Source: a virus (lineage: Duplodnaviria; Caudoviricetes). Taken from it: a DNA stretch of 64,000 bases. Positions 5,038-39,602 of the stretch are shown in pieces. Numbering within the stretch: the stretch's first letter is position 1; each line of letters opens with the position of its first letter. The position numbers and the translations under genes are program-made. Where the stretch lies: the IMG/VR virus record IMGVR_UViG_2854078061_000001, positions 44,150 to 108,149 of that record, one strand, 5' to 3'. The notes under the pieces were generated by a model, which was not told the DNA's origin, ran no database searches, and saw nothing but the letters and a program-made list of their open reading frames with translations.

Positions 5038-7581
5038 TTGTTTAGTCCACCATTATATAGCGTACTAAAATTTAACTTGAATTATATCGTTTCTCATAAC
5101 TATAATTTTAAACTGACACCAGAAGAGATGGAGCAGTATGAGGTCTTACAGGGCGACGATATGTTGTTCAGACAAATTCGGCTCATTTCCGACGACTAGA
5201 ATAAATTCCAGCGCTTTATTATCTTTGTTGATGCAACAGGTGGCCAGAACCACCCTGATGCTATTGATCATTTAGTAGAGCATGGATTCAAATTTAATGG
5301 CCAGAAATATCTGTTCTGTGAACGTAGTGCAAGTATGGTCCGTCAGAGCATGTTAAGTTTTGTTGAGCGACATATCTACCCTGAACTTGACCGCCGCGTA
5401 AGCATGGAACTGGATTTTTCTGAGACACCCACCGTCCTGAGCAAGTATTATGCTTATCGTGGTTTGATGCTGAGTAGCTGCCACTGCCTAGAGAACTGGT
5501 ACCCCAAAATGATTGTTGTTCCAGACTATATGACAACGATCAAGAATCAGTGGATCGAGTATCTGGTAGACAAGACTGTGACGTTTAATGACCGCAAAAC
5601 AGGCAAAGAGCGTACCTGGACTCAGAAAGATATCGCCACAAAAACAGTTGACATTGATATCAACGCCTTTGATGGCGCTGGAATCTGCCACCCAAGTATC
5701 ATGCGCGAATTTGAAAAGCGTATCGGCACTTCTGAACGGATGAACAGCTTGATTTTGCGTGCTCCATATATCAAGGGTTGCTTACACGAGATTGATTACG
5801 AGCGTTTTTTTGAAGAGAACGGCGTTACAAAAATCAAGGACATCTGGGGCATGGAATATGATGTAACACCTGGCAGCGAACCAATGATTATTATTACTGC
5901 TTCAATGTACAAGGGTCTCAAATATTTCAAGAAAACTGGTACCTATTCTGACTGGGAGAGATATTGGGAACTTTTCAAGAAGTACGACAACTGCCTTGGT
6001 GTAGCTAAATGGAACTTTACGCTTGAACAAGAACCGCTTTCCACCCGTAGCAACTATCAGGTCATTCAAGATCTACAGCTCGACAATGAGTCTTTTAAGC
6101 ATCTAGCTGACGACAGCATTACCTGGTATCAGAATATTGTCAAAGGCGACCCAATTTATACATACTGCTTCCTTGGTTTACTTGCCGAGAACAACGACCC
6201 GATGAATCATTACATGGCTGCTGCCCTGCGTAACCCAGTGATGGTGAAAGAGCCTGCAATCAAAGATTATATTCACTCGCTGCTTGATAAATATCGCAAT
6301 GAGATGAAGTGCGGTCGGCTTTGGATGAATGCTACTTTTAAGTTCTGGGCTCCTGACCTTATTGCACTATTGCAGCACATTGGTGGCCTACCTGTGACTG
6401 GCTGCCTTGAAGACGGTGAGTTCTACAGCTTTGATCGTCGTGGTGTGATGGAGGGAGACCGCTTAATTGAGCGCAATCCCCATATCTCTGTTGCAGAACA
6501 TGTAAAGGCCAAGGCCGTAGACAACGAATACACCCGCAAATACTGCAGCCATCTTCAGAATGTTGCTATGGTAAATATCAAATCCATCGTGGCTTCCAGA
6601 CTCAATGGTTCGGATTTTGATGGCGACCTGGTTCTAATCATCGATAATCCGCTGATGATGAGTGGTGTTCCTGATAATATCCCCATTACACTCGATGTTG
6701 AAGATAAGATCACTGCGTTGGCAGAATGTGATATTGTGAAGAACAAAGTTGCCTGCACCATTCGCGGATTGAAGAGTTCTATTGGCGAAATTTCAAACTA
6801 CGCAACTGCATACCATAATAAGGTTCCGACCATGGAAAAGACCAAGAAGCTCTATCACGATAATATTTCGCTTTTGAGCATCTGCAACGGAAAAGCTATC
6901 GATTATGCTAAAACAGGTGTTCTATATCCGATCCCGCGTAATGTAGCAGCTTATGGTCGTCCTCTACCCTACTTTATGAAGTATGCAGGCCCTTACTACG
7001 CACGTTTACATAATCTCAGCAAGGCACATAGCAACATGAACCTGCTTTGCATGAGTCTGGAGCGTTGGGAGCGCGGTGTACGGTGGCGTAAAGAGCCCGC
7101 AGGCAGCTTTGATTGGCATATCATGTACGATCCAGAGGTCTCCTATGACCAGGCAGTCTTTGATGAGATCGAAGCCATTTTCTTGGACTTCAACAAATGC
7201 CGCAAGGAACAGCTTGAGTTCGAAAAGAAATGTCGCAACTGGCAATTATATCATAAGGACATCGAGTCGCGTATTACCAAAGAAGAGGCTAAGACATATG
7301 AGACGAACTGGCAGGCGATCTACAATGTCTACCGTAACAAGTGTAAGCTGGTGTGTCCTGATGTGAGAGAGCTGGCGAATATTCTTGTAGTGCTTTGCTA
7401 TGAGAAGTATCCCAATAAATTCAAGAAGTTTTTGTGGCACATGGCCGGCGCTGGTGTGGTCGAAAATATCAAGCCGGTTCCTGTTCAGCTGCCAGTTCAC
7501 GATCCGAACGGCGAGTACGAATACCTTGGCCAGCGATATAGTCTGGCTGAACCGAAAATTTATGAAGCGAGGGTGAAATAA
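5038..7581 (+). CDS. YonO-like single-subunit DNA-dependent RNA polymerase (847 aa, TAG 5197-5199 read through)
   Basis: Catalytic LNGSDFDGD motif, FDGAG, RAPYIKG, ERNPH, AIDYAKTG; GAGGAG RBS before TTG 5038; position upstream of the late operon as in SPbeta. Confidence 0.88.
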
Positions 7582-22937: not shown

Positions 22938-23048
22938 ACGGGCCTCCTTTCTGCCAGCAGTCTCTCTACTGGACTTCGGGAAGCCCCTACTAATTCTCGC
23001 CGTTTTAATAATTCCCAAAAGGGATACGCAGGTGTTCTTCAAATTTGA

Positions 23049-23077
23049 ATTGTACCACATCCAGAAAGAAAAAGGAA
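23049..23077 (-). promoter_or_regulatory. SigA-like promoter for the small peptide mRNA
   Basis: TTCCTT-N17-TACAAT with extended TG. Confidence 0.5.
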
Positions 23078-23572
23078 GTGTTTATTATAAAAATCATTGC
23101 TTTTGACCAGGCTCTCGGCAAGACGGGTGTCTGTACTATTGATGGTGACACTGTTTACCACTCGCTGATCGACCTGAGCAAAATCAAGGACACCTTGGAA
23201 CGCTCGACAATGATGCGCCAGATGATCCAGAGCCGCATCAAGAACAATCGTCCAGACCTTGTAGTGATCGAAGATGTTGCACTGCAAAGCTCGCCAAAAA
23301 CATTGATCCAGCTGGCGCAACTGCAAGGAGCGATTATGGGGGTATGCGAGCTAAACAATATTCCCTATGAGATCATTAAGCCATCCGAGTGGCGAAAAAT
23401 ATTAGGATTTAAACAGGGTCGAGTAAAGCGTGCAGAATTAAAGCAGCAGGCCATAGACTATGTGAAAACCTATTATGGAGAAGATGTTTCGTCTGATGAA
23501 GCTGACGCGATGTGCATTGCGACAGCTGTAAAGTTGGAACTTGAAAATAATAAATTAAATCAGGAGGACTAA
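23078..23572 (+). CDS. RuvC-like Holliday junction resolvase
   Basis: IIAFDQAL, VVIEDV, PSEWRK, DEADA motifs; start codon uncertain (GTG 23078 or ATA 23087). Confidence 0.85.
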   Translation: MFIIKIIAFDQALGKTGVCTIDGDTVYHSLIDLSKIKDTLERSTMMRQMIQSRIKNNRPDLVVIEDVALQSSPKTLIQLAQLQGAIMGVCELNNIPYEIIKPSEWRKILGFKQGRVKRAELKQQAIDYVKTYYGEDVSSDEADAMCIATAVKLELENNKLNQED

Positions 23573-24682: not shown

Positions 24683-27600
24683 ATGGCGAGAGAACCAGAA
24701 TTGAGCATCAAAGTTAAGGTTGACCCGCAAATTGATGCCGCCAAATTACAAGAAGATATCAATAAAAAAATTCCAAAAGACGGCGTTGAGATCAAGGGCA
24801 AACTGGACGTAGACAGTCTTCTAAAGAGTGTTTCTAAATACCAAGAGGGCGATCAACATCTTGTGCCTATTATGGCAAAAATCTCGAATGTTGATAAGGC
24901 ATTGGATGTTTTCAAAGAAAAAGAGACAGAAACAAAAGTCAACTTGAAAGCGACCCAGGCCAGCCTCGATACGATCAGAGACCAACTGCAAGGTGTAATT
25001 GATGGTCTTGATTATTCAAAGCTGGAAGGCGCATCTGCTTCGACCTCTACTACTTCTACAAAGCATACAAAAAAGGGCAAAAAGACCACTGCCGTTGATG
25101 CAAGTACGGCTGCTAAACAAGAGATTCCTGTTGATGTAGTAGGAACGATTAGCGACGATAGTGTCACCGCGCTGAAAACTAAGATTGAAGCAGGGCTTAA
25201 TGACATTGCTATCGTGGCAAATATTGCTCCAGATCAGCTGTCTAAAATACGGAAAGATGTTGAGGCTGCTTTCAACGGTATTGCGATCACCCCAACTATA
25301 AAAGGTGTTAATGGAGCTGCAGCTCAGACCGGCGCAAAGAAAAAGGTCAATATTCCGTCTGATGACAAAATCATGGAGCAGATGGCCAATGCGCAATATA
25401 CTGCCACAAAGAATGAAAACGCAGAAGCGGCCGCCGTAAAACAAAAGGATATTATTTATCAGAATCTGGCCGATCATCAGGCAAAGGCTTCTGAAAATGC
25501 TAGTGCTGCCACTGCAAAGACCGCTCAGGGATTGTCTGATGCGAATAAAGCTATGGGCGATCTGAATGCGTCGGCCGTTGATTTTGAGCAGGACTGGCGG
25601 CGAGTCGTTACACTGATTGCTAGTGCGACAAAGAATCTAGCAAATTTAATGAAGGACAATTATGGAAAGTCTTCTGGTCTTGATATTTTTAGTTCTTTTC
25701 AGGAATTTCAAGATGAACTTCCAGACCTTGATACTGAACATGTAAAGCCATATTTAAAAAGTATAAAAGATTGGTCAGATTCTCTACTTGGAAACGCAAG
25801 TGGTGATTTTGATTCAAATACTATGATTCAGGCCATCCATATGCTCTCTGGCCTTGCAGATGCCTGGAATAATATTGATGTATCAAAATTGACAGATAAT
25901 CAGACAAAAGATAAATTGCTCAAAGAAATGTCTGAGTTGAACAGCATTTTCCCATCCTCTGGAGACAAACAACCGTTCCTTGGAGAAAAGGATGCCGCTA
26001 TCAATTATCTGACTGATCTATTGGCAAAAGCAGCAAAGTACTATGCAGAGGTCGGTAATGCAGCAAAGCAAACAGCTGACAGTATCGCGGTTGCCAATGA
26101 GGGTTTTGCGAACCAGACAGCAGAACTGGAAAAGAACAACGCAGAACTTGAAAAACTGAAGCAAAACGGAGTTACTCCTGTCAAGGAAAGTGCAGTTGAT
26201 ACGCCTTCGATTGCTGAAAAGGTTACATTGAAGCCGGAAGATATTACCCCGCCAGAGACACCAGTTGAGATTCCCGGGCATGTTACACTGACTGAGAATG
26301 ATATTACAGTGCCCAAGAGTCCAATTGAGCTAAAATGTAATATTGCCATTGAGAATAGTGAAACATCTAATGATGAGACTTCGGCAACTAAAACAAAGAA
26401 AAAATCTCGTCTTCGTCCTGTTGATTCGAATGATTTAAAGATTCAGCAAGAGGCTAATAAACTGCTGCAACAGGAAGAGCAGGAGCAGCAAAAAATTGCG
26501 ATAGCCGCTCAAAAAAAGGCAGATGCTGAAAACAAAGCATTTAATAGAGAAGTCGCAGCAGAGCAAAAGAAATATAACCAGGCCGAACTTGATAATCTGA
26601 AGGAAATCGAATCCATTTATCGAGAGTTAACCAGTCTTGAGAAGCAGCGTGGCAAATATACAAACCCAGATAAAGCTTTCGACTTAAATCAAGTTGAAGA
26701 AGACATTCGCATGGTTGAAGCAGAACTTAGTGAAAAAATGCGTTCAGCAAGCGAAACTGGTTATAATCCTTTAAAAGTCAAAAGTATTCGAAAACAAGCT
26801 CTAAGATATTATCGTGCTCAAGCTAGTTCTGACAATAAGTTTGATATTGCAAAACAAAATGCAGATACCAAGGCTCAGGAGGAAGCAAAAAAAGCTCTTG
26901 ATGAAGAAGCTGCAGAACGTGATAAAGTGGCACAAGCTGCGCAGAAGCAAGCTATTGCAATTCAGAAAGCGAATGAAGCCGCCGCCAAATCTCAACAAAA
27001 ACAGGATGAGAAGAATGTTGGTAGTGTTATAGATGACATTGTTTCCGAATCAAATAAGCTGATTCGACTTTATCAGCAGCGTTCAAGTCTAGTTAAACCT
27101 GAAGATGTTGCTACTTTAACCGAGGTCGATAATAAAATAAGTGATATTGTTGACAAGATTAAAATTCTTAAGGACAATTCAATCGCCTCGGGTATTCCCA
27201 TCAATAATTTCACAGAGGTTGCAAATGCTAACACGCTTGTTGAAAAAGCTAGAGTAAATAGTTCCACAAATTTTGATAAGAATCAGCAAGCTTATAATCT
27301 CACTCAGGCAACTAATGCGATTGAAACCGCTAAAGCAAAATATATCAATGCGTTTGCCGAAATTCAAAAGAAACGTGAAGAATTAGCGAAAACAGATGAC
27401 TTGGCGACACAGCAAATGATTCGGAATGCTATTGCTACTCAAAAGGCAATTATGAAAGCTTCTGGACACGAAATCAATTCTTATAGCCAACAATATGGCG
27501 GATTGGTTGATTCCGCATGGGCTGATGTCGATGTTGTGCGAAACAACAAACAGATTCAAGATCAAATTGCATACGAGGCAAAGGTATCAAAGGAAGCTGC

Positions 27601-30223
27601 TGCAACAAAGAAAGAGAATATTGATTTATTAAACAAATACAATCAAGCTCTTAATGAAGAAGTAAAATTATATAAAGATCTTCGTAATGCTGCCCCAGTG
27701 GATCAGACAACTAAACAAAATCTTCTGGAAAATCAAAAAGAAAAAGTTGGTGCTCTTAGAAAAGAGATCCATGACAAAGGGTTAAATTCTTCTCCAGAGT
27801 ATAAAAAATACACTTCTCAATATCACAATAATATTTCCGGAATAGATTCTGCAATTTCAAATAGTTCAGATGCCGCTCGTATAAAAGCGAACAACGAAGC
27901 AGACGCTGAGGTTCTCAAAAAAATTATCAGTCTATATCAGGAATTAAATAAGGAATCAACTCATCGTGTAGCGTTATTTAAAGACGAAGATGTCGAAAAA
28001 TTAAAAGAAACAGATGAGGAAATTCAGCGGCTAACTGACGATATTGAAAAATTAGAAGAGGCTGCCAAATACAGTGGGATTGATCTTGCTGGAAATGATG
28101 CTTATATGAAAGCATTTGAGAACTCTGACAAAATCCGAGCAGCTAATTCTAAGCAGTTTAATTCAAATCGTTCCAATTATGTCGAACAACAGACTGATGC
28201 CTTGATGGCCGAATATCGTACCCAAGTTAGCCGCATGCAAAATGCCGGTGAAAAAAGAGAACGTGCTACTGCTGCAAATCTTCCTTGGAAGGCAGAACAG
28301 TATAATACTCAGTACGAAGAAGCAGAAACAGCTTTGAAAGCACTCGATGATGAATTACAAAATCGTGGCTTACAACTTGAGCAATCTTATTTGGACTTGT
28401 TGCATGAAAAAGCTCAGGCAGAAAATGTTGTTAATGAGGCAAAAAGAAAAACGTATAAAACAGATGAAGAATCTACCCAAGTCACCAATAAAGAAATTGC
28501 AACGCTTGAAAATTACAAGACACAGCTTAGCGGAGTTCTTGGTCGATTGGAAAAGGCGGGTGCTGGCGATAGTTCTACGTATAAAACAGTAAAGGATTCT
28601 TCAAGGGTTCTTGATGATTTTTATGATAGAATGCATTCTCAACTAAACGTTGACGGAAGCAATAAAGATCAGGTCGCTGTTGAATAGGCCAATGCAAATG
28701 GGATTGAATATGTAAAAGATTATAATAGTGCGATCCTTGCTTTGACGGTTTCATTAAAAGAGTATAAGAGACTAGCTGAGGACCTCTCAACAAGAAACAC
28801 ACTTGAAAATTCTTTCATCAGAGCATCAACGAGAATTTCAAATTTAAAGAGTGAATTACACGATTACCTGGAAAAATATCCAAAAATCATGCAGAGTGAA
28901 CTTGCCGGAGATGTTGAAAAGCTTCAGAGTGATTTGGATTCTTCAACGGCATGGATGCGTGATAATGAACTCGGTAAGGATCTTGCAAAAATTAAACAAA
29001 GGGCAAAAGATCTTGGTCTTGAGGCGCAGAATTTACTTGATATTTTTGAAAAGCTTTTTGGCCAGCATTTGAGCACTATGATCACTATGGCTGCGTTGCA
29101 CAAAATGCAAGAAGCTGCACAGAAAATTTATCAAAACGTCGTTGACATCGACACTGCAATGACAGAACTACGCAAAGTCACAAGTCTAACTGCAAGCGAA
29201 TATGAGTCGTTTATGGATCGAGCTGCAGATAATGCTACACAACTAGGCATTAGTATTAGTGACTTTATCAATAGCACAGCCGATTGGGCGCGTCTTGGTT
29301 ACACAGAACAGGAAGCTGAGGAACTTGCTCGTGTCAGTAGTCTGATGAAGAATGTTGGTGACGGTATTGAATCTGCGAGTGATGCTTCTTCTTACTTAAT
29401 CTCTGCGATGCAAGGCTTTGGATTGGCTGCCGATCAGGCAAGTGAATTTCTGGATGTTATGAACCAGATTGCAAACACTGAACCTGTCACTGCAAACGAC
29501 CTTGGTGTTATTATGCAGAAGTCGGCCGCCGCAATGAATGCTGCTGGTAATACGTATCAGGAGACAATGGCTATGGCAGCCGCTGTTAACGGTGTCCTTC
29601 AGGATAACGATACTAGTGGTACATATCTGAAAACTCTGAGTATGTATCTGCGTGCTGCTAAGACTGATGCTGAATCGGCTGGCATTGAAATTGATGGCAT
29701 GGCTAATTCTGTATCTGAACTTCGTAGTAAATTAAAATCCCTAACCGGCGTTGATATTATGTCTGATGCAGCTGGTAAAAACTTTAAGTCTACATATCAG
29801 ATTATGAAGGAGCTGTCTCAGGTTTGGGGTAATCTTTCTGATGTTACTCAAGCAAATGTCACTGAACTGATTTCTGGTAAACGCGGAGGTCAAGCAACTT
29901 CTGCCCTGCTTAACAACTTTAGTGTCGCAGAAGATGCTATGAAACAAGCAGCAAATGCTACCGGAAGTGCGCTGGCGGAAAACGCAAAATACCTTGATTC
30001 TATTCAAGGTCGTCTTGCACAGTTGGACGCTTCTTTCCAATCTTTGTCTACTCATGTTCTCGATTCTGGTATTGTAAAATATACAGTTTCGTTCTTAACA
30101 GCCATCGTAAAAATCACAGACAATATCACTAAGCTTTCAGGGGCATTGCCTCCGATTGCTGCTGCCGTTTCTGGTATTCTGTCTATTATGCAAGCAAACG
30201 GCAAACTCCAAAATGGTGCAGGT
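24683..30223 (+). CDS. Tape measure protein, exon 1 (1847 codons, TAG 28685-28687 read through)
   Basis: Coiled coil followed by TP901-type TMP core (IDTAMTELRKV, TADWARLG, SGKRGG); exon ends at the predicted 5' splice site. Confidence 0.88.
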
Positions 30224-30709
30224 AAAGTTAATATGCCCGTTTATGTTCGTTGCGTTTAAAGAACATAGGATGCAACACCATATAAAACTAAACACCCCCT
30301 AGAGTGCTGGGAAACCCTAAGAGCCATATCGCCTATTGTTATACTTGTATAATGTAGGAATCGAAAAATAGAAACAAGGATATGGATGCTATATGCTGAG
30401 ATAAAAGCTCGGTTTTACCGTATTGTTAAAATGTTGTAACAGTCGAGTGCTAAGTAGCGTTTACAATGGGCGGTCAGCAGCCGATCCACTCCCCTATTAT
30501 ATAATGTAGGATGGTGGAAGGTTCATCGACTAAAAAGGGTCAGTGAGCAACCACTGGAAGGATAGTCAGTTCTGGACGAAAGTTCAGAAGTCCACCTCAG
30601 ACGTAACCAGACGACTTAAAGAAGTAGGTGGAAACGAGGAGACGCGCCATTCTCTGGCGCGATATAAGTAGAAGAAAATATTCAAAATTGTAATTCGACA
30701 TGATTCATA

Positions 30710-30738
30710 TTGACAGCTGACGCACTGGTGGTTATAAT
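30710..30738 (+). promoter_or_regulatory. Consensus SigA promoter inside the intron
   Basis: TTGACA-N17-TATAAT. Confidence 0.9.
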
Positions 30739-30780
30739 GAAAATACAATCGTATAAACTCATTTTACGGAGGTATTTATC

Positions 30781-31119
30781 ATGCCGAGACCTAAAGGAAG
30801 CAAAAACAAGGTTACTATGATTGCAGCGGCTCCTGTCGATTATGCCGCACTGATTGATGAAAAGCAATCCGCAAAAGATTCGTTGAATGCAGATGTTGCT
30901 TCTATCGCGGCTAATATCGATTCTTTGAAGGCTGATCTGAAATCCAAGAAAGCTGAAATCAAAAAGTTGGATAAAGAGTTGGCTCATCTTGCTAAAAAGA
31001 AGGATGAAGCTGACAAGAAAGCTGCCGAGGCCGCTGCTGAAAAGGAAGCCGTCGATCTTGTAAAGAAGGCGCTGGCAAATGGAACTACTGTTGATGATAT
31101 TCTTGAGCTTCTGAAATAA
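30781..31119 (+). CDS. Intron cargo: AT-hook-like N-terminus plus coiled coil (112 aa)
   Basis: GGAGGT RBS; MPRPKGSKNK; heptads; own promoter and terminator. Confidence 0.85.
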   Translation: MPRPKGSKNKVTMIAAAPVDYAALIDEKQSAKDSLNADVASIAANIDSLKADLKSKKAEIKKLDKELAHLAKKKDEADKKAAEAAAEKEAVDLVKKALANGTTVDDILELLK

Positions 31120-31146
31120 CTGCTGTACAGCCATCATAATGAACAA

Positions 31147-31182
31147 GCCCGACTTCCCTACTACTGGGAGGCCGGGCGTTTT
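31147..31182 (+). terminator. Intrinsic terminator inside the intron
   Basis: GCCCGACTTCCC-loop-GGGAGGCCGGGC then GTTTT. Confidence 0.75.
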
Positions 31183-31209
31183 GCATTGCTTTTTACGACG
31201 GTCTATGAT
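31181..31209 (+). promoter_or_regulatory. Second SigA-like promoter inside the intron
   Basis: TTGCAT-N17-TATGAT. Confidence 0.65.
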
Positions 31210-31236
31210 ACACTCTTGTAAAAGGAGTGTTAAATC

Positions 31237-31380
31237 ATGGAAAACAAAAGCAAAACTTCTGTAAAACATCCAGAAACAAAAAGCAATCAAGAGCATATTC
31301 AAAAACGTAATGGAACTTACACATATTCTCCAAAGAATCAAAATCCAGGAAAGCCTAAAGAAAAAGTCAAACAGAGGTGA
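31237..31380 (+). CDS. Intron cargo: 47-aa basic peptide
   Basis: AAAGGAG RBS; MENKSKTSVK... Confidence 0.55.
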   Translation: MENKSKTSVKHPETKSNQEHIQKRNGTYTYSPKNQNPGKPKEKVKQR

Positions 31381-31389
31381 TTAAATGAC

Positions 31390-31971
31390 ATGAAAGAAAT
31401 TATAGAATTCTTACCAGAACTTTTCGCATATTTTATTCCAGGTGCAATTACATTAACTATTTATAATTTTATATTTCTTAAAAAGCAAGACCACTCTGCT
31501 TTTATTTTCTGGGCAATTATAATTAGTTATATTGTAAAGATAGTAGTAGACGCTTGTGCCATAACACGATTCAATGGGGCTATTTATGTCGTTATTTGTA
31601 CGATGCTGCCATTTATTTTGTATGGACTACAGAGAATCGGATTGATTGATCGACTGTTTTCATATCTCAGACTATCTGATATTCAAAATATTTGGCTTTC
31701 AACATTAGATCTTGATGGTTGCAATTACGTCATCGTTTATTTATCTGATGGTCGTGCGTATTGTGGACTTATCCATCAAGCTGACGATGATTGGCTAATC
31801 CTTACTAATTACAATAGTGTCCTAGCAAAAAAAACAGACGAAAACTCAAAATCTAAAGATGACGAGCCATGCGACCAGATTCTCTGTATTCCAATGTCAA
31901 ATATTGAGTGTTTTGAAATGGCTTACGACGATGGCTCTCCAAAAATCAAAGAATTTTATCCATTTGACTGA
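31390..31971 (+). CDS. Intron cargo: 3-TM membrane protein with soluble C-terminal domain (DUF6338-like)
   Basis: FIPG motif, TM helices, VYLSDGRAYCG, ILCIPMSNIE; AT-rich. Confidence 0.75.
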   Translation: MKEIIEFLPELFAYFIPGAITLTIYNFIFLKKQDHSAFIFWAIIISYIVKIVVDACAITRFNGAIYVVICTMLPFILYGLQRIGLIDRLFSYLRLSDIQNIWLSTLDLDGCNYVIVYLSDGRAYCGLIHQADDDWLILTNYNSVLAKKTDENSKSKDDEPCDQILCIPMSNIECFEMAYDDGSPKIKEFYPFD

Positions 31972-31974
31972 ATG

Positions 31975-32010
31975 AAAAACACCTAGAACTGACGAGGTTC
32001 CGGGTGTTTT
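31975..32010. terminator. Bidirectional terminator between convergent cargo genes
   Basis: AAAAACACCTAGAAC-loop-GTTCCGGGTGTTTT. Confidence 0.75.
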
Positions 32011-32037
32011 ATTTATGCCATACGAGTTAGACACGTC

Positions 32038-32481
32038 TTACCATTCATACCCACAATTCTTACACTTGAACTGATGACGCACTTTACTAGAGAAGACACC
32101 GAACAGAGCGAACGACACTGCTTTGGATGTACCGGAAATTTTTTCGATATCAGGTGATCCACAAGTCGGGCACTTTGGAACGTACTTCGGGGTCGGCTTC
32201 TTTTCTGGCGGCTTACTCCCCTGCTCTGCGAGATATTTACGAATCTGGGCATCTTCTTTGTCAAATTCATCAATCCATTCAGGATGATTCCCTGGTCCAT
32301 ACATTGGTTTATATTCTTTTGGCTGTTTCATTTTCGATAAAATTTCAGCTTTCCCCTCATCATTCGCTTTTATCCATTTTTTATAATCAGTCAACAAACA
32401 TCCACAATGGTAACATACAAACTTCGGCCAGTATGCCAATCTTCCGCAATGCGGACAGACTTCAATTGTTTTGTCATCCAT
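32038..32481 (-). CDS. Intron cargo (antisense): double zinc-ribbon protein (147 aa)
   Basis: AGGAGA RBS; CPHCG..CYHCG and PKCPTCGS...CKNCGYEW with a short hydrophobic stretch. Confidence 0.85.
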   Translation of the reverse strand: MDDKTIEVCPHCGRLAYWPKFVCYHCGCLLTDYKKWIKANDEGKAEILSKMKQPKEYKPMYGPGNHPEWIDEFDKEDAQIRKYLAEQGSKPPEKKPTPKYVPKCPTCGSPDIEKISGTSKAVSFALFGVFSSKVRHQFKCKNCGYEW

Positions 32482-32507
32482 AAATTCTTTTCTCCTCAAG
32501 AAAACCG

Positions 32508-35500
32508 ATATTATCTTTCCTGACAGCTTATTCCGTTGATAAAGACGGCAATACTGTTGGTGGATTAAAACAGTTGACATCTTCCGCTAAAAATCTTGTA
32601 ACACAACTAAAGAAAACTTTCACTACTGTATCTGTTGGCTATAAGAATTTTAAAGATATGGACGAAGCTGTTCGTGGCAGTGGTTCTTCTTTCTCTGATT
32701 ATATCAGATGGGCATCAGAAAGTGAAGAGGCAACTGAAGCTTTTGGTCTTGCAACCTTGTACGCTAAAGCTCGTGTTATTGCACTCAATATGGCCGTAGG
32801 TGCTGGCATTGGTTTAGTAGTTTCTTATTTCTCAAAGAAAATTATCGAAGCAGCGCAACGTACAGATAAACTCGCAGAATCTTCCAAAGAAGCAGCAGAT
32901 GCTGCAACCAACACAAAAACTTCTTTGAAAGAACTCGCAGATGAATATGAAAATCTTGGAGATAAATCGACCTAGGACACTGATAGTTATGACAAAGCGA
33001 AAGGCATTCAGGAACAAATTCTTCAACTCGCTAAAGATCAGGGTACATTAGACGAAGATAAAGTCAACAAAATTGATCTTCAAAATGGTAAATACGAAAA
33101 TCAACTTGCTGTTTTGAAAAAAATTCGTGAAGAGCAAGTTCGTGCTTCTACTGATGACTATGAAGATGATAAGAGAAGGCAAGGCCAGAAATTAGTTAGC
33201 GATGCAAAAAGCGCTGTTGACGGTGGCTATGTTTTAACTTCGTCTTTTGATCACGATATGGCTGAAGATTTACAGGCTCAAGGTTTCAACCTCTTTAAAG
33301 GTATTAGTAATAACTCACTAGTCATCGGTCCCGAAGATCCAAATGATCCTCAGTCGGTTCTTGACTGGTATGACGATCTTACCGAAGCCTTAAAAGTATT
33401 GAGAAAGCAATATTCTGATGCTGACCTTGAAGAGAAAGGTATCTATGAAGGCTTGTACAATATTCTTTCCGCTCAAAAAGAAGCGTTGGATGATCAGGTT
33501 GCTGCTTACAGAAATTCCGCTGATGTTCTGAAGAAGAATAAAGAAGAAGTTGGTAAATACGATCTTTCTAATGATCTTTCTGCAAGTAAAAACTTCCGTG
33601 ACAATCCGCAGCCTCTGTCCGATTCTGAAGAAGCCAAAATTGATTCAAAAATCCAAAAGACGAAAGAGTATAAGGACGCAGTCGAAGAAGCCCAGGAAAC
33701 AGAAGCCAAGTGGGAATCTGGCGGTTTCAATAAGTATGGCAACGTTGATAATTTCAACCGTGATAAGATTGACTGGACCAAAGAGAATCTCGAAAAGTAT
33801 AAAGATTTTGTTGCTGAGCAAAACAAATTCAACCCTGGCGAAATAGAAGAAGGTGGATACTCCACTGTTCTCGGCGTATACGACAATCTTTATAGAGAAA
33901 GCCCCGAAATGCCGCTCATGGCTTACACTCCGATGCTTCAGACTGAAGATGGCCTTGTTCCGCTTACCGAAGATCAGGTGCGCAGCTATATTGAGACTAT
34001 TGCAGAGAAGTGCTGGACAGAAGATGACACCATTGACCTCGACAAGTTAATGAAGCTTGATGCTACCGGACTTGAGCGAGACATCAATGGTGAGATGATT
34101 CGTGTCAAAGGCATGATTGCAGGTGTTGAGGGCGGCACTGGTTCTGATGGTAAAAAGCTCACAAAAGCGGATATCATGGCTATCTCTGGTTCAAGCAATG
34201 ACGAAATTGCTCAAGAACTGTATGGTGGGGAAATGGGCGATTATTCTGGCATGGGCTGGTTGAGTAAATATATTGGTCGTTCTATGCATGACGCTCAGGC
34301 TGTTGCCCAAGAAGGTAAGGATAATATTGAATCGATATATGACAGTCTATATGATAACCTTGCATATGGGAACGATATTACCACTAAGAATCAACTCTCA
34401 AATGATTTACAAGGTGCTTTTGATGATATTGCCGAATCTCTTGGTAAAGACTCTCGTGCAATGACAGTATCTGATGTTGTTGGTCTTACTGCCGATGATG
34501 TAGAATTAACTGACGAACAGGCCGCAGCTATCAATACTCTTACAGAGGCAGCCACGAAATACAAGACTTCTATTCAGGGTGTGGCTGAAGCTGGCGAAGA
34601 AAATGGTATGTTTGGTGGTATCGAAAATGCCGTAAATGGCGTATCGTCTGCTATTCAACAGATGGAAACCATCTCTCAGAATATAGACAACATCCAATCT
34701 GCATATAAGGCTTGCACAACCGCTATGGACGAATATAACAAGTATGGTTATATGAGTGCAGACGCTTTGCAGGGTCTCTTGAGCATGAATGACGAGTATC
34801 TTGCATGTCTGGATGTTGTAGATGGAAAGTTAAAGATCAACAACGAACGTTATGCTGATCTAATTGTTGCGCAGTATACCGAAGCTGAGGCAACCGCAAT
34901 CGATCAAGCCATGAACGAACTCAATGCGCTTCAAAAGGAAGATGCTAAGAAGAAAACCGAGGATTTAACGACCGCCACCGAAGAGCAGCAGACCGCCCTT
35001 GAAAATGCCGTACCCGCTATCCAAAATGCAACAACCGCTACCGGTGACTTAGCTATCGCTCTGGCGACCGCACAAGGAGCAGCCGAAGGCGATGACGCAA
35101 TGCAGGCGAAAATTGACACAATAACAGCCGCATTGAATACTCGTCTGACCGCTATTCATAGTAATATGCAGACTGCTATTAAAGGCGGAAAAGAGCTTAA
35201 AAACCAACTTAATGGATTTAACAAAACAAATAAAGGATCAAGCTCCAAGTCTGTAACAGATGCTGCATCCGCATTCGATACACTGACAAAAGCCATGAAG
35301 GAATATAACCAGTATGGCTATATCACTGTCGAAACCATGAAGTCTCTTATGACTTTGGAAGATAAATTTACGTCTTGCTTAGTAAAAAATGGAGACCATT
35401 TAGAAATCAATGCAAATGCGTTTAGAAAGTTAGTAGAAAATCAATTAAAGGAAGAAGAGGCGAACGGGAAAGCGTCTAAGAAGGCAACCGAATTGTCTCG

Positions 35501-38500
35501 AATCCTTTCGTATTTGGATAAAAATGTTCACTCTTCTACAATTACATTTGAACAGCTTACGGATGCGATTAAAGGATATGGTTCTGCTCTTTCTGATGCT
35601 AAAGCTGTAACAGATGACTTTAAGGGTGTTTGGGACAACGGAAAAGTAGTCAAGGAAAAGACAAAAAAGAGCCGTACTGGTGCTCTGGATTATGAAGGCA
35701 CTGAAGCTCAAAGTGCCGCGCTGCAATCCATTAAAAAGTATAGTGAATATGATCCGGATCTGATCAATAAAGCCTACAATAAAGATACTGGTAAAATCGA
35801 CCTAAGTGGTGATGTGTTAAAGGATGCAGTCGTTAAATCTTTGGAACAACAGGCAAAAGCCGCCAGAGATGAGAACAACGCGGCTGCCAATGCAATTGCT
35901 GATAGTTATGAAACTGCTGCCAATAATATCAAGAACAACGTTATTTCTGTTCAAGACTACTTCGACGGACTGGGTTCTACGGTTGAAGAGTTTAGCTCCA
36001 AGATCGACGATATGCAGAACGCATGGACCGATTTGAGCGATGTCACAAACGAGTATAACACTTACGGCGGTTTGAGCATTGACAGTATTCAGAAACTGCT
36101 TACAATGTCTCCCGAGTATCTGCAGTTCCTCAAATTGGAGGGCAACCAGCTCGTCTTTAATAAAGAAGCGATGCTGGCAAAAACCAAGGCCGACATTCTG
36201 GCAAAGGCTGCAGAGCTCGAACTAAAAGATGAGACCAAAGATCAAGCAGAGATTCTACGTGCGTTGGCGGATTCTCTTGATAAGGGCGCAGATTCGATGG
36301 AGGGCATGGGCAAATCGGCTGACAAGCTGAAGACCCTGATGTCCCAACTGAACACTGTTTTGAATTCTTTTATCGGTGTTTTTGATGACTTGAACGACAA
36401 ACAGTCCAACGACCTCAAGATTCAGGGTGAAGCTTGGATCGATGTTATTGACAAGCGTATTGACGCACTCAATGAAGAAAACGATGCACAGGAGCGATCA
36501 ATCGAACTGGCAAAACTTCAGGATGAATACGAGCGTGCAAAGGCCAATAAGACTGTTCATGTATATGGCGGCAGAGGTCAAGGTTTTGTATGGAAAGCAG
36601 ATGAAAATGCCGTTCGTGAAGCTGGGAAAAACCTATCTGACAAGCAGCGTGAATATAAGAAGAAAGATGAAATTGACAAGCTGGAAAAGCTCAAAGATAA
36701 AGTTCAGGAAACCAATAATCTTATTGGCACCAGCTGGGATGATTATCAGAAGAAGCTGAAATACACAGCCGAGTTCGAGGCTATGACATTTGAGCAGATG
36801 GAAGGTCACTATGACGGTTTCAAGAGTAGTGTCCTTAACAATATGCAGGCCATTCAGGGCGCGACAAACGTCAAGAATGTTATCACTGATATTTCCAATT
36901 TGATCTCTACTTTGGAGACACTGGCGAATATTTTGAACATTCTTAATGGCGGAAGTGGTGACGGCGGCGGAGTCTTTGGCTTCATCAACCAAATCAAGAA
37001 CATGTTCACTGGCGAAAACGGTGATTTTGATCTGGGTGGTGGCTTTAAGAAGATGTTCGATGGAGCTGCTAAGGTGGTTTCTGACGGTTGGAACTGGATC
37101 ACTGGTAAGAACAGGGCTGGTTCTGCCGCACTAAAATCAGACACCACTGCGACATTGGATATCCTTGGCAACACAATAAAGGTGAATACCGGCGATATTC
37201 AGCGTGTATCTGGTGGATTCTTTGAGAGACTAGTTGGTGCTGCGAAAGACAATCTTGGCAGTATCGGTAAGTTCTTCTCAGGTGCATAGACATCTATCTC
37301 TGAGAAAACCGGATTGATGTTTACTGATATTGGCTCGTTCTTCACAGAAGGATTTGGCCTGTTGAACAGTCAGACAGGACTTGGTCTTGGTGGCATTGTT
37401 GAGACCGTCGGAAGTATGTTTGGCCCAATTGCGGCTGGAGCACAGTCTATCGGTAGTGCCATCTCGTCTGGCGTTGTAAGCTTCTTCCCTTCTATCTTCG
37501 CCGGACTTGGTACTCTGGTGACTAGCGTTGGCAGTGCAATGGCCGCTATGATGCAAGCGATTGCTGCTGCTCTTTCTTCCATTCCTATCGCTGGTTGGAT
37601 TGCTGCCGCCGCAGCTGTTGCAGGTGCAGTTGCTCTAATTGCTACGATTGCTTCGATTGCAAGTAATGTTTCCAATACACAGGTTGATGAACCTACTCCC
37701 GCATTCCAAGCAAAGAAATATGCAAAGGGTACTCGTGGCGTTAAGAAGAGCCAGATTGCAAACGTTGATGAAAAGGGCGAAGAGCTGATTGTTCGTAACC
37801 CAGACCAGGGACGCATGACCTACCTTGAAAAGGGCGACGGTGTTATTCCTGCAAAGGAAACCGACAACCTGATGGCGATTGGCGCTGACCCCGAGGGCTG
37901 GCTGGCAAAGGGCTTGGCCGAAGTGACTGGTAGTGCCGCAGCCGGTGCCGGTATGAGTGCCCAAGGTCCGAGCGCTCAGTTGAGTGGTGCTGCAGCTGCC
38001 GCAGCCGCTGGCGTTGGTTCGATTTTCAAGAGCGAGTATGACGAGATCCTTGGCGATACAACTGAGTTTATGTCTGGACTCTCTGACATCTTCAAGAAGA
38101 GTGATAATCCGATTATTGCCGCCGTTCAAAGCATGATTTATATGGCCACTAAGACTGTATATCGTATGTCTACGGTCGGTAAGATTAACTCTTCTAAGAC
38201 AGTGACAGAATCCACCAGCAACACAAAGAAGGCGACCCAGAGCCAAATTTCGTCTATGACGAGCAACTTTGAGTCTAGCTGGAAATCTGTGGCTGGCGAG
38301 CTCGGTCTGGACACAAAGGATATTGAAGAAACCAGCAAAAAGATGTCTGAGAAGATGAATGAGCTGGTGAACAACACCTTTGATGCGCTGAACGAAAACA
38401 CCGGCCTTAGCGCCGAGCAGGTTGAAGATGTCACCAACACGATGTTCGATTCGCTGCAAAAGATTTATACCAGCGGATGGAACAGCCTTGCTTCCACTTC

Positions 38501-39602
38501 CGGCGACATGTCTAAAGAGATTGCGGATAAGCTGAATGCGTCTTATAAGTCTTCTGTTGATAGCACAAATAAGGCCATGAACGAGATCTCCAAGGCATTC
38601 GGTCACAGCTGGAGTAAGGTTGGTGGCGGTGTAAAAACCCTGAGCACCAATGTTCAAAAGACAATGGAGCAGGCATGGGCTGACACCAGCCAAGACACCC
38701 AGAAGCTGATGTACGATATGCGTGCGTGCTTTGACAATAGTTGGAGCATGAATGAGGCTGGTGTAACTCATCTGGCAGACATGACTGAGCAGACCATTGG
38801 CGGTGCTTATGACGAGATCACCTCTGATGCCGCAAATACGTTTGGTAATGGCGGTTCTCTGTCCACTGAGACAGACAACGCATGGGCGAATGTTGAGCCT
38901 GGCGCAAAGGACATTAACACCAATCTGACATGGATGATGGACCAGTCTTACAACGCCATCAAGGCTGGATGCGAAGCTGCCGTTACATCGATTAAAAACG
39001 ATTTGGCGACCACAGGCGATGCATTTGAAGCTGTTGGTAAGAAGGCTGCTGATACTTCTGCCGCAATCAGTGAAGCAAGTCAGAAAGCACAACAGAGCAC
39101 ACAGCAGAATACCGGTCCAAGCAAGGGCGTGACTGCCGCTGCTGGTGCGGGCATCGGCGCTGCCGTTGGTTCATTCCTTGGGCCTCTGGGTGCAATTGGC
39201 GGTGCTGCAATTGGCGGTTTCTTTGGCAGTCTGTTTGGCCATGCAAATGGTCTGAAGTCTGCTAAGTTCCCTCACATGGCTAATGTTGATGAGCAGGGTC
39301 CTGAGATGTTGGTTCGTAAGCCGGATTCCGGTCGGTATACTTATCTTGAGACTGGCGATGGTGTTGTCCCTGCCGATATCACCTCTCGCCTATTCGAGAT
39401 GGGCGGCAACCCGGATGCATGGTTCCAGAAGCAGATGACAAAGTACGGTTCTCAGCCGATTGTTCAGGGCGGCGGTGGAGATGTTACAACTTCGATTGGC
39501 GATATTATTATCACAAATCCCGTTGGCAGCTCTGATGCTCTGGCAAATGAAATCAAACAGAAGTTACCGACTAAGGTTGCTCAAATGCAAAGTAAGCGGT
39601 AA
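32508..39602 (+). CDS. Tape measure protein, exon 2 (2364 aa, TAGs 32973-32975 and 37287-37289 read through)
   Basis: Three in-frame ORFs joined only by TAGs; EYNxYG repeats; C-terminal A(K/N)G...VDExGxE motifs. Confidence 0.88.

What the first reader, a model, noticed from the sequence alone, without database searches (positions are those of the whole stretch)
30224..32507. Group I intron in the tape-measure gene carries a four-gene accessory island instead of a homing endonuclease
Seen: catalytic core (P3/P4/P7/P8/P9) at 30290-30590, U30223:G30235 in P1, and a perfect 6-bp P10 (TAATAT/ATATTA) defining omega-G 32507. Splicing joins ...LQNGAG to ILSFLTAYSVDK... in frame, giving 4,211 aa. The ~1.9 kb between P9 and omega-G holds two SigA promoters, two terminators and four ORFs (coiled coil, basic peptide, membrane protein, antisense zinc ribbon). 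None has HNH, GIY-YIG or LAGLIDADG motifs. Inference: the ribozyme works as a neutral landing pad for lysogen-expressed morons (exclusion or defence) inside an essential gene, conceptually like an IStron but without a transposase.
Basis: partly seen in the sequence, partly recalled or inferred. Interest (0 to 1): 0.86.

Follow-up and report, generated by a model that had tools for sequence, protein, structure and literature searches.

The report
Cargo-carrying group I intron in tape-measure gene
The tail tape-measure gene of this gut phage is interrupted by a self-splicing-type (group I) intron that, instead of a homing endonuclease, carries four independently expressed genes, and related phages keep the same intron at the same spot with partly different gene loads, including toxin-antitoxin and defence-like genes.

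Summary
Observation confirmed. 30224-32507 has a group I ribozyme in its first ~460 nt: a weak full-length Rfam hit; 95.6% of cells paired on 14 relatives, 12 pairs with compensatory change. It is 93% identical where neutral exon sites are 41%. The U.G 5' splice site, the 6-bp P10 and omega-G are conserved in 63 related IMG/VR loci. Genomic exon frames differ at random (intron length mod 3 = 22/22/19), yet joining at these sites always gives one frame. No exon 2 has its own start with a ribosome-binding site. No intron-less allele was found. The 4,211-aa product also needs three in-frame TAGs read as Trp.

The cargo is not four random morons. A near-consensus sigma-A promoter, a coiled-coil gene, two terminators and the antisense zinc-ribbon gene at the 3' splice site are fixed parts (57-58 of 58 variants). 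Between them is a swappable slot: usually a small peptide plus a membrane/Sm-like protein (as here), elsewhere Panacea antitoxin pairs, DUF3800 or a retropepsin-like protease. No homing endonuclease was found.

The scan has reported the same kind of intron on other phage DNA; I found no paper on it. New variant of a known kind, IStron-like topology.

The parts
24683..30223 (+). Tape-measure gene, 5' exon (one in-frame TAG at 28685); ends ...LQNGAG
   Evidence: One frame from 24683; the stop at 28685 is TAG and is TGG (Trp) in L004. PhageMin_Tail PF10145 3e-25; phrog_4211 TMP 7.7e-69, profile positions 539-954. Aligns to residues 36-444 of the uninterrupted 1508-aa TMP of Enterocloster phage PMBT24.
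30224..32507 (+). Group I intron, 2,284 nt
   Evidence: Bounded by conserved P1 (U30223.G30235) and omega-G32507/P10. Intron length in relatives is 1,880-4,959 nt.
30219..30239 (+). P1 and internal guide sequence. 30221-30224 pair with 30234-30237; 30219-20 with 30238-39 pair variably. TAATAT 30229-30234 is the P10 partner.
   Evidence: Columns 7-10 with 20-23 pair in 14/14; U.G at the splice site in 14/14. TAATAT is invariant.
30239..30663 (+). Ribozyme: P2, P3-P9 core with a large P5 extension (Rfam hit 30239-30588), then P9.1-like helix (30594-30635) and GC hairpin (30643-30661)
   Evidence: Compensatory changes in P2, P8 and the P5 extension; P4, P5 and P7 invariant. 93% nt identity to L008, against 41% at 4-fold sites of the adjoining exon.
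30636..30642 (+). GAGGAGA, candidate 5' strand of a helix closing the cargo loop (partner 32491-32497)
   Evidence: Present in all 58 variants with no start codon behind it. The 5 variant cases keep pairing through G.U only. No covariation, and duplex z is only -1.5. Inference.
30710..30738 (+). Sigma-A/sigma-70-type promoter of the cargo operon
   Evidence: TTGACA-17-TATAAT, 12/12. At least 10/12 at the same place in 57 of 58 intron variants.
30781..31119 (+). Coiled-coil gene (112 aa): conserved N-terminus M-[PA]-RPKGSKNK, long coiled coil, short C-terminal helical end
   Evidence: ORF with SD. Present in 58/58 variants in 4 types. Only coiled-coil-type Pfam/PHROG hits below threshold.
31147..31177 (+). 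Intrinsic terminator T1 (hairpin, then U-rich tail to about 31195)
   Evidence: -22.6 kcal/mol, z -3.44. A hairpin plus T tail follows the coiled-coil gene in 57/58 variants.
31237..31380 (+). Small hydrophilic peptide gene (47 aa)
   Evidence: SD AAAGGAG. Shares MENxKK...TYTYSP with the 62-69-aa ORF that precedes the membrane gene in 36 other variants.
31390..31971 (+). Membrane protein gene (193 aa): three N-terminal helices plus a C-terminal Sm-like barrel; DUF6338-like
   Evidence: AlphaFold model pLDDT 69. Foldseek Sm/LSm hits E about 3e-4, TM (target) about 0.7. DUF6338 in 6/19 family members, best E 1.9e-4, and ESM Atlas neighbours. Present in 46/58 variants.
31976..32010 (.). Bidirectional terminator T2 between the membrane gene and the antisense gene
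   Evidence: -16.7 kcal/mol (+ strand) and -13.9 (- strand), z -3.98 and -3.40. Present after the membrane gene in 46/46.
32038..32481 (-). Antisense zinc-ribbon gene (147 aa; two CxxC...CxxC ribbons joined by helices). Its start codon lies 26 nt from the 3' splice site.
   Evidence: ATG 32481 with SD GAGGAGA. Present next to the 3' splice site in 58/58 variants in 15 types. Invariant Cys, Pro and Gly columns. Model pLDDT 79; no PDB fold match at E<=0.001 and no nuclease family.
32491..32497 (+). UCUCCUC: complement of the antisense gene's SD, and candidate 3' strand of the loop-closing helix
   Evidence: Lies 7-20 nt upstream of omega-G in all 58 variants.
32507..32513 (+). Omega-G (32507) and the P10 exon partner ATATTA (32508-32513)
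   Evidence: Variants GTATTA (G.U) and ATATTT keep at least 5 pairs.
32508..39602 (+). Tape-measure gene, 3' exon (TAGs at 32973 and 37287; TAA at 39600)
   Evidence: phrog_4211 profile 928-1076 follows on from the 5' exon. TAG 32973 aligns with Trp in 33 of the 33 relatives that have a residue there. No in-frame start with SD in the first 80 codons in 0/58 variants.
32698..32726 (-). Candidate promoter of the antisense gene, inside the 3' exon
   Evidence: TTCACT-17-(TG)TATAAT, 10/12. Promoter-like sites of 9-10/12 lie 136-204 nt into exon 2 in most variants. Not tested.

Best explanation
30224-32507 is a functional group I intron, vertically inherited and fixed, in the giant tape-measure (TMP) gene of a temperate, SPbeta-like gut phage that reads TAG as Trp.

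Splicing. The ribozyme occupies the first ~460 nt. After late transcription it cuts at U30223|A30224. It finds its 3' splice site 1.85 kb downstream through omega-G32507 and the 6-bp P10, perhaps helped by a 7-bp GAGGAGA/UCUCCUC helix that would close the cargo into a loop. Exon ligation restores one TMP frame.

Cargo. The stretch between the core and the 3' splice site is an autonomous gene island read by the host RNA polymerase. A near-consensus sigma-A promoter drives a coiled-coil gene, then a small peptide and a membrane/Sm-like protein, bounded by two intrinsic terminators. A convergent antisense zinc-ribbon gene starts next to the 3' splice site. The coiled-coil and zinc-ribbon genes are the fixed frame of the island. 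The stretch between them is a slot where recombination swaps modules, which in relatives include toxin-antitoxin and defence-like genes.

Terminators (inferred). The phage's YonO-type late RNA polymerase runs through the internal terminators, so the same DNA gives short cargo mRNAs with the host enzyme and a spliceable precursor with the phage enzyme.

Status of each step. Shown by comparison: ribozyme, splice sites, fixed and variable parts. Inferred: splicing in vivo, polymerase partition, accessory or exclusion function.
For: Ribozyme is real and under selection:
- Full-length Rfam hit here and in two relatives.
- 95.6% of cells paired and 12 compensatory pairs, reached by 0/500 shuffles and well above slid controls.
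- 92-93% nt identity to L008 and L018, where 4-fold degenerate sites of the adjoining exon are 39-41% identical.

Splice sites:
- P1 U.G, P10 and omega-G are conserved in 63 loci.
- Intron length mod 3 is 22/22/19, so the genomic frames of the two exons differ at random, yet the junction is always in frame.
- In 0/58 variants does exon 2 have a start with SD in its first 80 codons.
- The 5' exon stops 12 codons into the intron.
- A TMP profile runs on across the junction.
- The homologous TMP of Enterocloster phage PMBT24 is uninterrupted at this place.

Cargo layout:
- Promoter at least 10/12 in 57/58 variants.
- Terminators in 57/58 and 46/46.
- Coiled-coil and zinc-ribbon genes in 58/58; membrane gene in 46/58.
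- Slot contents in relatives: SocA/Panacea 5e-15 to 5e-20 with a partner ORF, DUF3800 8e-16 (PDC-M04A), retropepsin-like protease (PDC-M08B).
- Linkage drops between modules (AMI 0.05-0.35).
- No endonuclease family in any cargo ORF tested, and no nuclease fold for the zinc-ribbon protein.

Polymerase and lifestyle:
- A YonO-like polymerase gene lies at 5335-7581 (Pfam RdRP PF05183, 2.4e-13).
- A large serine recombinase and a tyrosine integrase are in the same record.
Against:
- The Rfam score is half the gathering score and disappears in a whole-window search.
- No covarying pair links the 3' tail to the core. The proposed closing helix is invariant, and its 3' strand is also explained as the antisense gene's ribosome-binding site.
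- Two strong sense-strand terminators lie inside the intron. Read-through by a YonO-type enzyme has not been shown, here or in the paper read.
- The window's own cargo proteins have no PADLOC hit and no experimentally known relative.
- Universal conservation of two cargo genes could mean they serve the phage or the intron rather than being accessory.
- The intron was present in every relative found, so mobility and a 'landing pad' history are inferred only from differences in cargo.
Confidence: 0.7

Rival explanations
1. Regulatory intron. The conserved cargo frame (promoter, coiled-coil protein, terminators, antisense zinc-ribbon gene across the 3' splice site) exists to time or gate TMP production. 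Host-polymerase transcription, termination and antisense RNA over the 3' splice site and early exon 2 would keep splicing or tail synthesis off until the late polymerase takes over. The accessory modules would be secondary passengers.
For: - The coiled-coil and zinc-ribbon genes, the promoter and both terminators are kept in nearly all 58 variants.
- The antisense gene's start lies 20-30 nt from the 3' splice site everywhere.
- Promoter-like sites for it sit inside exon 2, so its 5' UTR would be complementary to the splice site.
- The intron is never absent.
- The coiled-coil protein has a basic RPKGSKNK N-terminus, which I read from memory as AT-hook-like.
Against: No test of expression or antisense effect. 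The antisense promoter is only 9-10/12 and not at a fixed distance. Conserved flanking genes are also what a recombination hotspot looks like. The uninterrupted TMP of Enterocloster phage PMBT24 shows that such phages need no gate.
Confidence: 0.17
2. Discontinuous (trans-) splicing. Transcripts end at the internal terminators, the 3' exon with the intron's 3' tail is transcribed separately, and the two RNAs associate (P10, GAGGAGA/UCUCCUC) to splice in trans.
For: Two strong, conserved sense-strand terminators lie between the core and the 3' splice site. The core and the 3' tail could pair.
Against: No good + strand promoter lies upstream of the 3' splice site; the best is 9/12 at 32028-32057. 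The region there is occupied by the antisense gene. A phage-encoded late polymerase offers a simpler route. No covariation supports the intermolecular helix.
Confidence: 0.06
3. Dead intron and split gene. The ribozyme is a relic, the TMP is made as two polypeptides (ending at TAA 30259, restarting near TTG 32574), and the space between is an ordinary moron island.
For: The Rfam score is below gathering. A TTG lies 22 codons into exon 2. Terminators inside the intron would stop host-type transcription.
Against: The ribozyme is 92-93% conserved where neutral sites are 39-41%, with compensatory changes. P1, P10 and omega-G are conserved in 63 loci. No start with SD in exon 2 in 0/58 variants. 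The break falls within a region that is continuous in a TMP profile and in PMBT24.
Confidence: 0.05

Closest known systems
IStrons (CdISt1, BcISt1): group I intron with an insertion sequence embedded in its 3' end (PMC3984707, PMC4227781)
   Same: A splicing-type group I ribozyme at the 5' end with foreign genes lodged between the catalytic core and the 3' splice site. Found in Firmicutes. The element makes an insertion in a gene harmless.
   Different: No transposase (TnpA or TnpB) was found here or in the relatives' ORFs tested. The cargo has its own promoter, terminators and an antisense gene. There is one fixed site in one gene rather than many copies: only one copy in this record.
Group I introns in tape-measure genes of Bacillus cereus-group prophages (TMP-IVS1, 2, 3; PMC2504315)
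   Same: Group I introns in prophage TMP genes, several without a complete homing endonuclease gene, passed on with the phage.
   Different: [quoted passage not shown] Here 1.4-4.5 kb of unrelated, separately signalled genes follow the core. Homology between the insertion sites or the ribozymes was not tested.
Phage T4 nrdD (sunY) intron type, with the ORF between the core and a 3'-terminal domain (from my own knowledge; not read here)
   Same: The catalytic core lies upstream of the intron's coding part. The 3' splice site is far from the core and must be brought back by pairing.
   Different: That ORF is a single homing-endonuclease gene on the sense strand. Here there are four genes on two strands and no endonuclease.
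Accessory-gene (moron, defence, toxin-antitoxin) hotspots of temperate phages, flanked by conserved genes (general knowledge)
   Same: Conserved flanks with a variable middle holding Panacea-type pairs, DUF3800, a protease and membrane proteins. Own promoter and terminators.
   Different: The hotspot lies inside an intron inside an essential virion gene. Its hypervariable right edge runs across the 3' splice site into the exon.

Membership tests
Group I intron (Rfam RF00028) | Conserved core helices P3-P9, with P7 (G-binding site) and P3 forming a pseudoknot | tested here: met
   Full-length alignment to the model. P4, P5 and P7 pair in 14/14; P8, P2 and the P5 extension show compensatory change; 95.6% of cells paired.
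Group I intron (Rfam RF00028) | Score at or above the curated gathering threshold (50 bits) | tested here: not met
   24.5 bits here; 24.1 and 26.9 in relatives. No hit at gathering threshold. A ~150-nt P5 extension is treated as an insertion by the model.
Group I intron (Rfam RF00028) | U.G wobble at the 5' splice site in P1, formed with an internal guide sequence | tested here: met
   U30223.G30235 is U.G in 14/14, flanked by G-C pairs. Conserved in all loci.
Group I intron (Rfam RF00028) | Terminal G (omega-G) and P10 pairing of the guide sequence with the 3' exon | tested here: met
   G32507. TAATAT/ATATTA gives 6 bp; variants keep at least 5 pairs. Seen in 63 loci.
Group I intron (Rfam RF00028) | Guanosine-dependent self-splicing with exon ligation | not testable with these tools
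Indirect support only: the junction is always in frame, and exon 2 has no independent start.
Mobile group I intron with homing endonuclease | Intron-encoded LAGLIDADG, GIY-YIG, HNH, His-Cys or PD-(D/E)XK endonuclease | tested here: not met
   No such family in the four ORFs or in the relatives' cargo ORFs tested. The zinc-ribbon model has no nuclease-fold match.
Mobile group I intron with homing endonuclease | Intron-less alleles of the target site in the population | tested here: not met
   All 79 related IMG/VR loci are interrupted at the same codon; none has the exons adjoining. A junction pattern found only unrelated genes.
IStron | IS element with a transposase (IS200/IS605 or other family) inside the intron's 3' part | tested here: not met
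   No transposase or TnpB family found. There is only a sub-threshold hit of the zinc ribbon to the Cas12f1-like TNB domain (E 0.002, 18.7 bits against a cut-off of 26.3).
DUF6338 (PF19865), for the membrane protein | Match to the family profile above threshold | tested here: inconclusive
   6 of 19 family members match, best E 1.9e-4. The window's own protein does not match. ESM Atlas neighbours carry DUF6338 in 26-31% of members.

The most novel reading that the evidence does not exclude
A group I intron has been turned into a permanent, heritable cassette holder inside an essential virion gene, read in two ways. The host polymerase sees a promoter-to-terminator accessory operon plus an antisense gene. 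The phage's YonO-type late polymerase ignores the terminators and makes a precursor from which the ribozyme removes the whole island. The island's middle, and a hypervariable block spanning the zinc-ribbon gene, the 3' splice site and the first ~100 codons of exon 2, are exchanged among phages as exclusion, toxin-antitoxin or defence modules.
Probability: 0.4. Interest if true: 0.82.

Novelty: new variant of a known kind. Interest (0 to 1): 0.72.

Why it matters
Group I introns in bacteria and phages are known either bare or with a homing endonuclease (or, in IStrons, a transposon). Here the intron carries a conserved, separately expressed multi-gene island whose middle differs between related phages.

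If splicing is confirmed, three things follow:
- A ribozyme can shelter kilobases of accessory, toxin-antitoxin or defence-like genes inside an essential gene.
- Annotation pipelines will keep miscalling such TMP genes as fragments.
- It gives a testable case of one DNA stretch being read differently by host and phage RNA polymerases, because conserved terminators sit inside an intron.

It also marks a place to look for new exclusion or defence genes in gut Firmicutes phages.

Tried and rejected
- Intron-less alleles: a junction DNA pattern in IMG/VR hit only unrelated genes. A profile scan of species genomes found nothing. A ribozyme pattern found one contig with the same intron, in a MAG labelled Faecalibacterium, at 39% G+C, so the host label is doubtful.
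- Contiguity of exon 2 with isolate TMPs: no tblastn or BLASTP similarity for the first 155 residues. Only the PHROG profile bridges the junction.
- Long-range pairing of the 3' tail with the core: a column-by-column covariation search gave only isolated columns. The base pair next to GAGGAGA/UCUCCUC does not covary. Duplex energy is only z -1.5 against shuffles.
- RNAalifold alone mis-folds the P3/P7/P8 region because of the pseudoknot, so the structure was drawn by hand from the Rfam alignment.
- A functional link between the zinc-ribbon protein and the exon 2 segment (AMI 0.83) is explained by plain physical linkage: neighbouring 150-nt blocks are all linked at 0.9-1.0. I make no binding claim.
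- Fold search of the zinc-ribbon model: only generic zinc-ribbon rows at E>0.5.
- Other RNA families or a nested intron in the larger introns of relatives: none.
- A covariance model of my own was not built. The alignment exceeds 400 columns and calibration time would exceed the limit.
Full report
**What the window is.** The window is the right 64 kb of a 108-kb IMG/VR record classed as a provirus. The record has a large serine recombinase and a tyrosine integrase. It also has a YonO-like RNA polymerase gene at window 5335-7581 (Pfam RdRP PF05183, 2.4e-13). The TMP region shows synteny with, and similarity to, ~100-135-kb Firmicutes phages such as Enterocloster phage PMBT24 and Brevibacillus phage Sundance.

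From 24683 to 39602 a single reading frame is interrupted only by three TAG codons and by the stretch 30224-32507. TAG 32973 aligns with Trp in 33 of the 33 relatives that have a residue there. TAG 28685 is TGG in L004. The TAGs are therefore sense codons, most likely Trp, as earlier notes of this scan also concluded.

**The ribozyme.** Rfam gives nothing at gathering threshold or in a whole-window E-value search. In a 6-kb search, Intron_gpI matches 30239-30588 end to end at 24.5 bits, E=0.004. Two relatives give 24-27 bits. The low score is partly due to a ~150-nt P5 extension.

Seventy-nine related loci from IMG/VR allowed a comparative test. On 14 diverse sequences, a group I structure drawn from the Rfam alignment pairs 95.6% of cells, against 34-42% for slid partners. 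It has 12 pairs with changes on both sides, in P2, P8 and the P5 extension, and 0 of 500 shuffles reach this. P4, P5 and P7 never vary.

The ribozyme is 92-93% identical between the window and L008 or L018. Four-fold degenerate sites of the adjoining exon are only 39-41% identical between the same pairs. The RNA is therefore under strong constraint, or has spread recently.

**The splice sites.** All 79 relatives break off at the same codon (...NGAG) and none has the exons adjoining. In the 63 loci where the downstream TMP frame and the motif were both found:
- The 5' boundary is GGT|AAAGTTAATATGCCC.
- The 3' boundary is G|[AG]TATTWWCTTT.
- U.G at the 5' splice site is kept in 14/14.
- TAATAT can pair with the first six exon 2 bases, with 5-6 pairs in all variants.

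Intron length ranges from 1,880 to 4,959 nt, with length mod 3 spread 22/22/19. The genomic frames of the two exons are therefore unrelated, yet joining at the conserved sites always gives one frame. This last point partly follows from homology of exon 2, so I do not count it as 63 independent trials.

Other evidence for one spliced gene:
- No variant has an in-frame start with a Shine-Dalgarno sequence in the first 80 codons of exon 2 (0/58).
- The 5' exon frame stops 12 codons into the intron.
- A TMP profile (phrog_4211) covers positions 539-954 with exon 1 and 928-1076 with exon 2.
- Exon 1 aligns to residues 36-444 of the uninterrupted 1508-aa TMP of phage PMBT24.

The first 155 residues of exon 2 have no detectable similarity to isolate TMPs. 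No intron-less allele was found.

**The cargo in the window.**
- A 12/12 sigma-70-type promoter at 30710-30738.
- A 112-aa coiled-coil protein gene with a conserved basic N-terminus (30781-31119).
- Terminator T1 at 31147-31177 (-22.6 kcal/mol).
- A 47-aa hydrophilic peptide gene (31237-31380).
- A 193-aa membrane protein gene (31390-31971).
- A bidirectional terminator T2 at 31976-32010.
- On the other strand, a 147-aa double zinc-ribbon protein gene (32038-32481). Its start codon lies 26 nt from the 3' splice site.

The membrane protein models as three helices plus an Sm-like barrel and resembles DUF6338. The zinc-ribbon model matches no solved fold. None of the four is a homing endonuclease or a transposase, and none has a PADLOC hit.

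**The cargo across relatives.** Among 58 distinct intron sequences:
- The coiled-coil gene and the terminal antisense zinc-ribbon gene are present in all.
- The promoter scores at least 10/12 in 57.
- T1 is present in 57/58, and T2 in 46/46 of those with the membrane gene.
- The small-peptide plus membrane pair is present in 46.

The window therefore holds the commonest arrangement. In other variants the middle holds:
- A SocA/Panacea antitoxin-domain protein with a partner ORF (L015, L055).
- DUF3800 (L025; PADLOC PDC-M04A).
- A retropepsin-like protease (L003; PDC-M08B).
- A 216-aa and a 302-aa protein of no family.
- Extra zinc-ribbon copies.

Some relatives also have a ~550-nt insertion after the ribozyme that encodes a 41-aa hydrophobic peptide on the opposite strand. 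Others have a ~400-nt insertion in the P6 loop.

Module types reassort. AMI is 0.05-0.35 between exon 1, the coiled-coil gene, the membrane gene and the zinc-ribbon gene. Linkage breaks fall near the 3' end of the zinc-ribbon gene and about 300 nt into exon 2. The most variable block (18-20 types in 58) spans most of the zinc-ribbon gene, the 3' splice site and the first ~100 codons of exon 2.

**How it most likely works.** The comparative data fit a working intron that removes the whole island from the late transcript. The conserved internal terminators are the main difficulty.

[quoted passage not shown] Read-through is my inference and is not shown in that paper.

The 3' splice site would be found through P10 and omega-G. 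A conserved GAGGAGA (30636-42) could pair with UCUCCUC (32491-97) to close the cargo loop. This helix is invariant, shows only G.U variants, and its 3' strand is also the antisense gene's ribosome-binding site, so it stays a candidate.

What the cargo does is unknown. Own promoter and terminators, absence of TAG codons, a temperate phage and toxin-antitoxin or defence-like fillings in relatives all point to accessory, exclusion or addiction functions expressed by the host machinery. The universal coiled-coil and zinc-ribbon genes could instead regulate the intron or tail synthesis; this is the first rival explanation.

**Comparison with what is known.** Group I introns in prophage TMP genes, some without endonuclease genes, were described in the Bacillus cereus group (PMC2504315). 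IStrons have the same topology, with foreign genes in the 3' part of a group I intron, but carry transposases (PMC3984707, PMC4227781).

Searches of the paper library found no description of a phage group I intron carrying a multi-gene accessory island. The scan itself has reported the same kind of intron in TMP genes of other gut phages several times. Those are unchecked AI notes that I used as leads only.

**Verdict.** It is a new variant of a known kind. The decisive missing piece is RNA evidence for the 30223/32508 junction.

Noticed in passing
window 28685-28687, 32973-32975, 37287-37289: The three in-frame TAGs of the tape-measure gene sit where relatives have Trp. TAG 32973 aligns with W in 33 of the 33 relatives that have a residue there. 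TAG 28685 is TGG in L004 and TAG again in L005/L006. No CUA-anticodon tRNA is among the six tRNAs of the 108-kb record, which is 73% complete.
   Followed up: partly
window about 32200-32800 (3' splice site -300 to +300): Most of the zinc-ribbon gene, the 3' splice site and the first ~100 codons of exon 2 form the most variable block of the region (18-20 sequence types among 58 variants) and are inherited together. Linkage breaks lie near -450 and +300. Exon 1 next to the intron has only 2 types.
   Followed up: partly
L010:7821-8390 and L038:8250-8814 (between the ribozyme and the cargo promoter): A ~550-nt insertion in some relatives' introns encodes, on the opposite strand, a conserved 41-aa hydrophobic peptide with a charged tail (MNFDIQTVYYVAMLFFGFAGFVKTVLEIFKMLHHHSESRDK). 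It looks like a type I toxin.
   Followed up: no
L038:7690-8104 (also L021, L040; probably L020, L045, L051): A ~400-nt insertion replaces the tip of the P6 hairpin of the ribozyme in a subset of relatives. It has no ORF of 60 aa or more and no Rfam match; its nature is unknown.
   Followed up: partly
window 30215-30218 with 30276-30279: RNAalifold pairs the exon bases GGUG, just upstream of P1, with an invariant CACC inside the intron (14/14, no variation). This may be an extension or an alternative of P1.
   Followed up: no
window 5335-7581: A 748-aa protein matches Pfam RdRP (PF05183, 2.4e-13) and phrog_8308, so it is a YonO-like two-barrel RNA polymerase. This bears on how terminators inside the intron might be passed.
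   Followed up: partly
G000:C1 1266-2948, 7949-9421, 3038-3823 (loci L088): The left arm of the record encodes a large serine recombinase, a NAMPT/NAPRTase-like enzyme and an RlaP-family nucleotidyltransferase. The NAD-salvage gene could be a counter-defence gene.
   Followed up: no
window 23045-23572: A RuvC-like Holliday junction resolvase gene lies about 1.1 kb upstream of the tape-measure gene, with two small ORFs between them. In Enterocloster phage PMBT24 the same kind of gene sits directly before the TMP gene.
   Followed up: no
L081 (CAAHET010000214.1): The only species-genome contig with this ribozyme is binned in a MAG labelled Faecalibacterium, but the stretch held is 39% G+C. The host assignment is therefore doubtful.
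   Followed up: no
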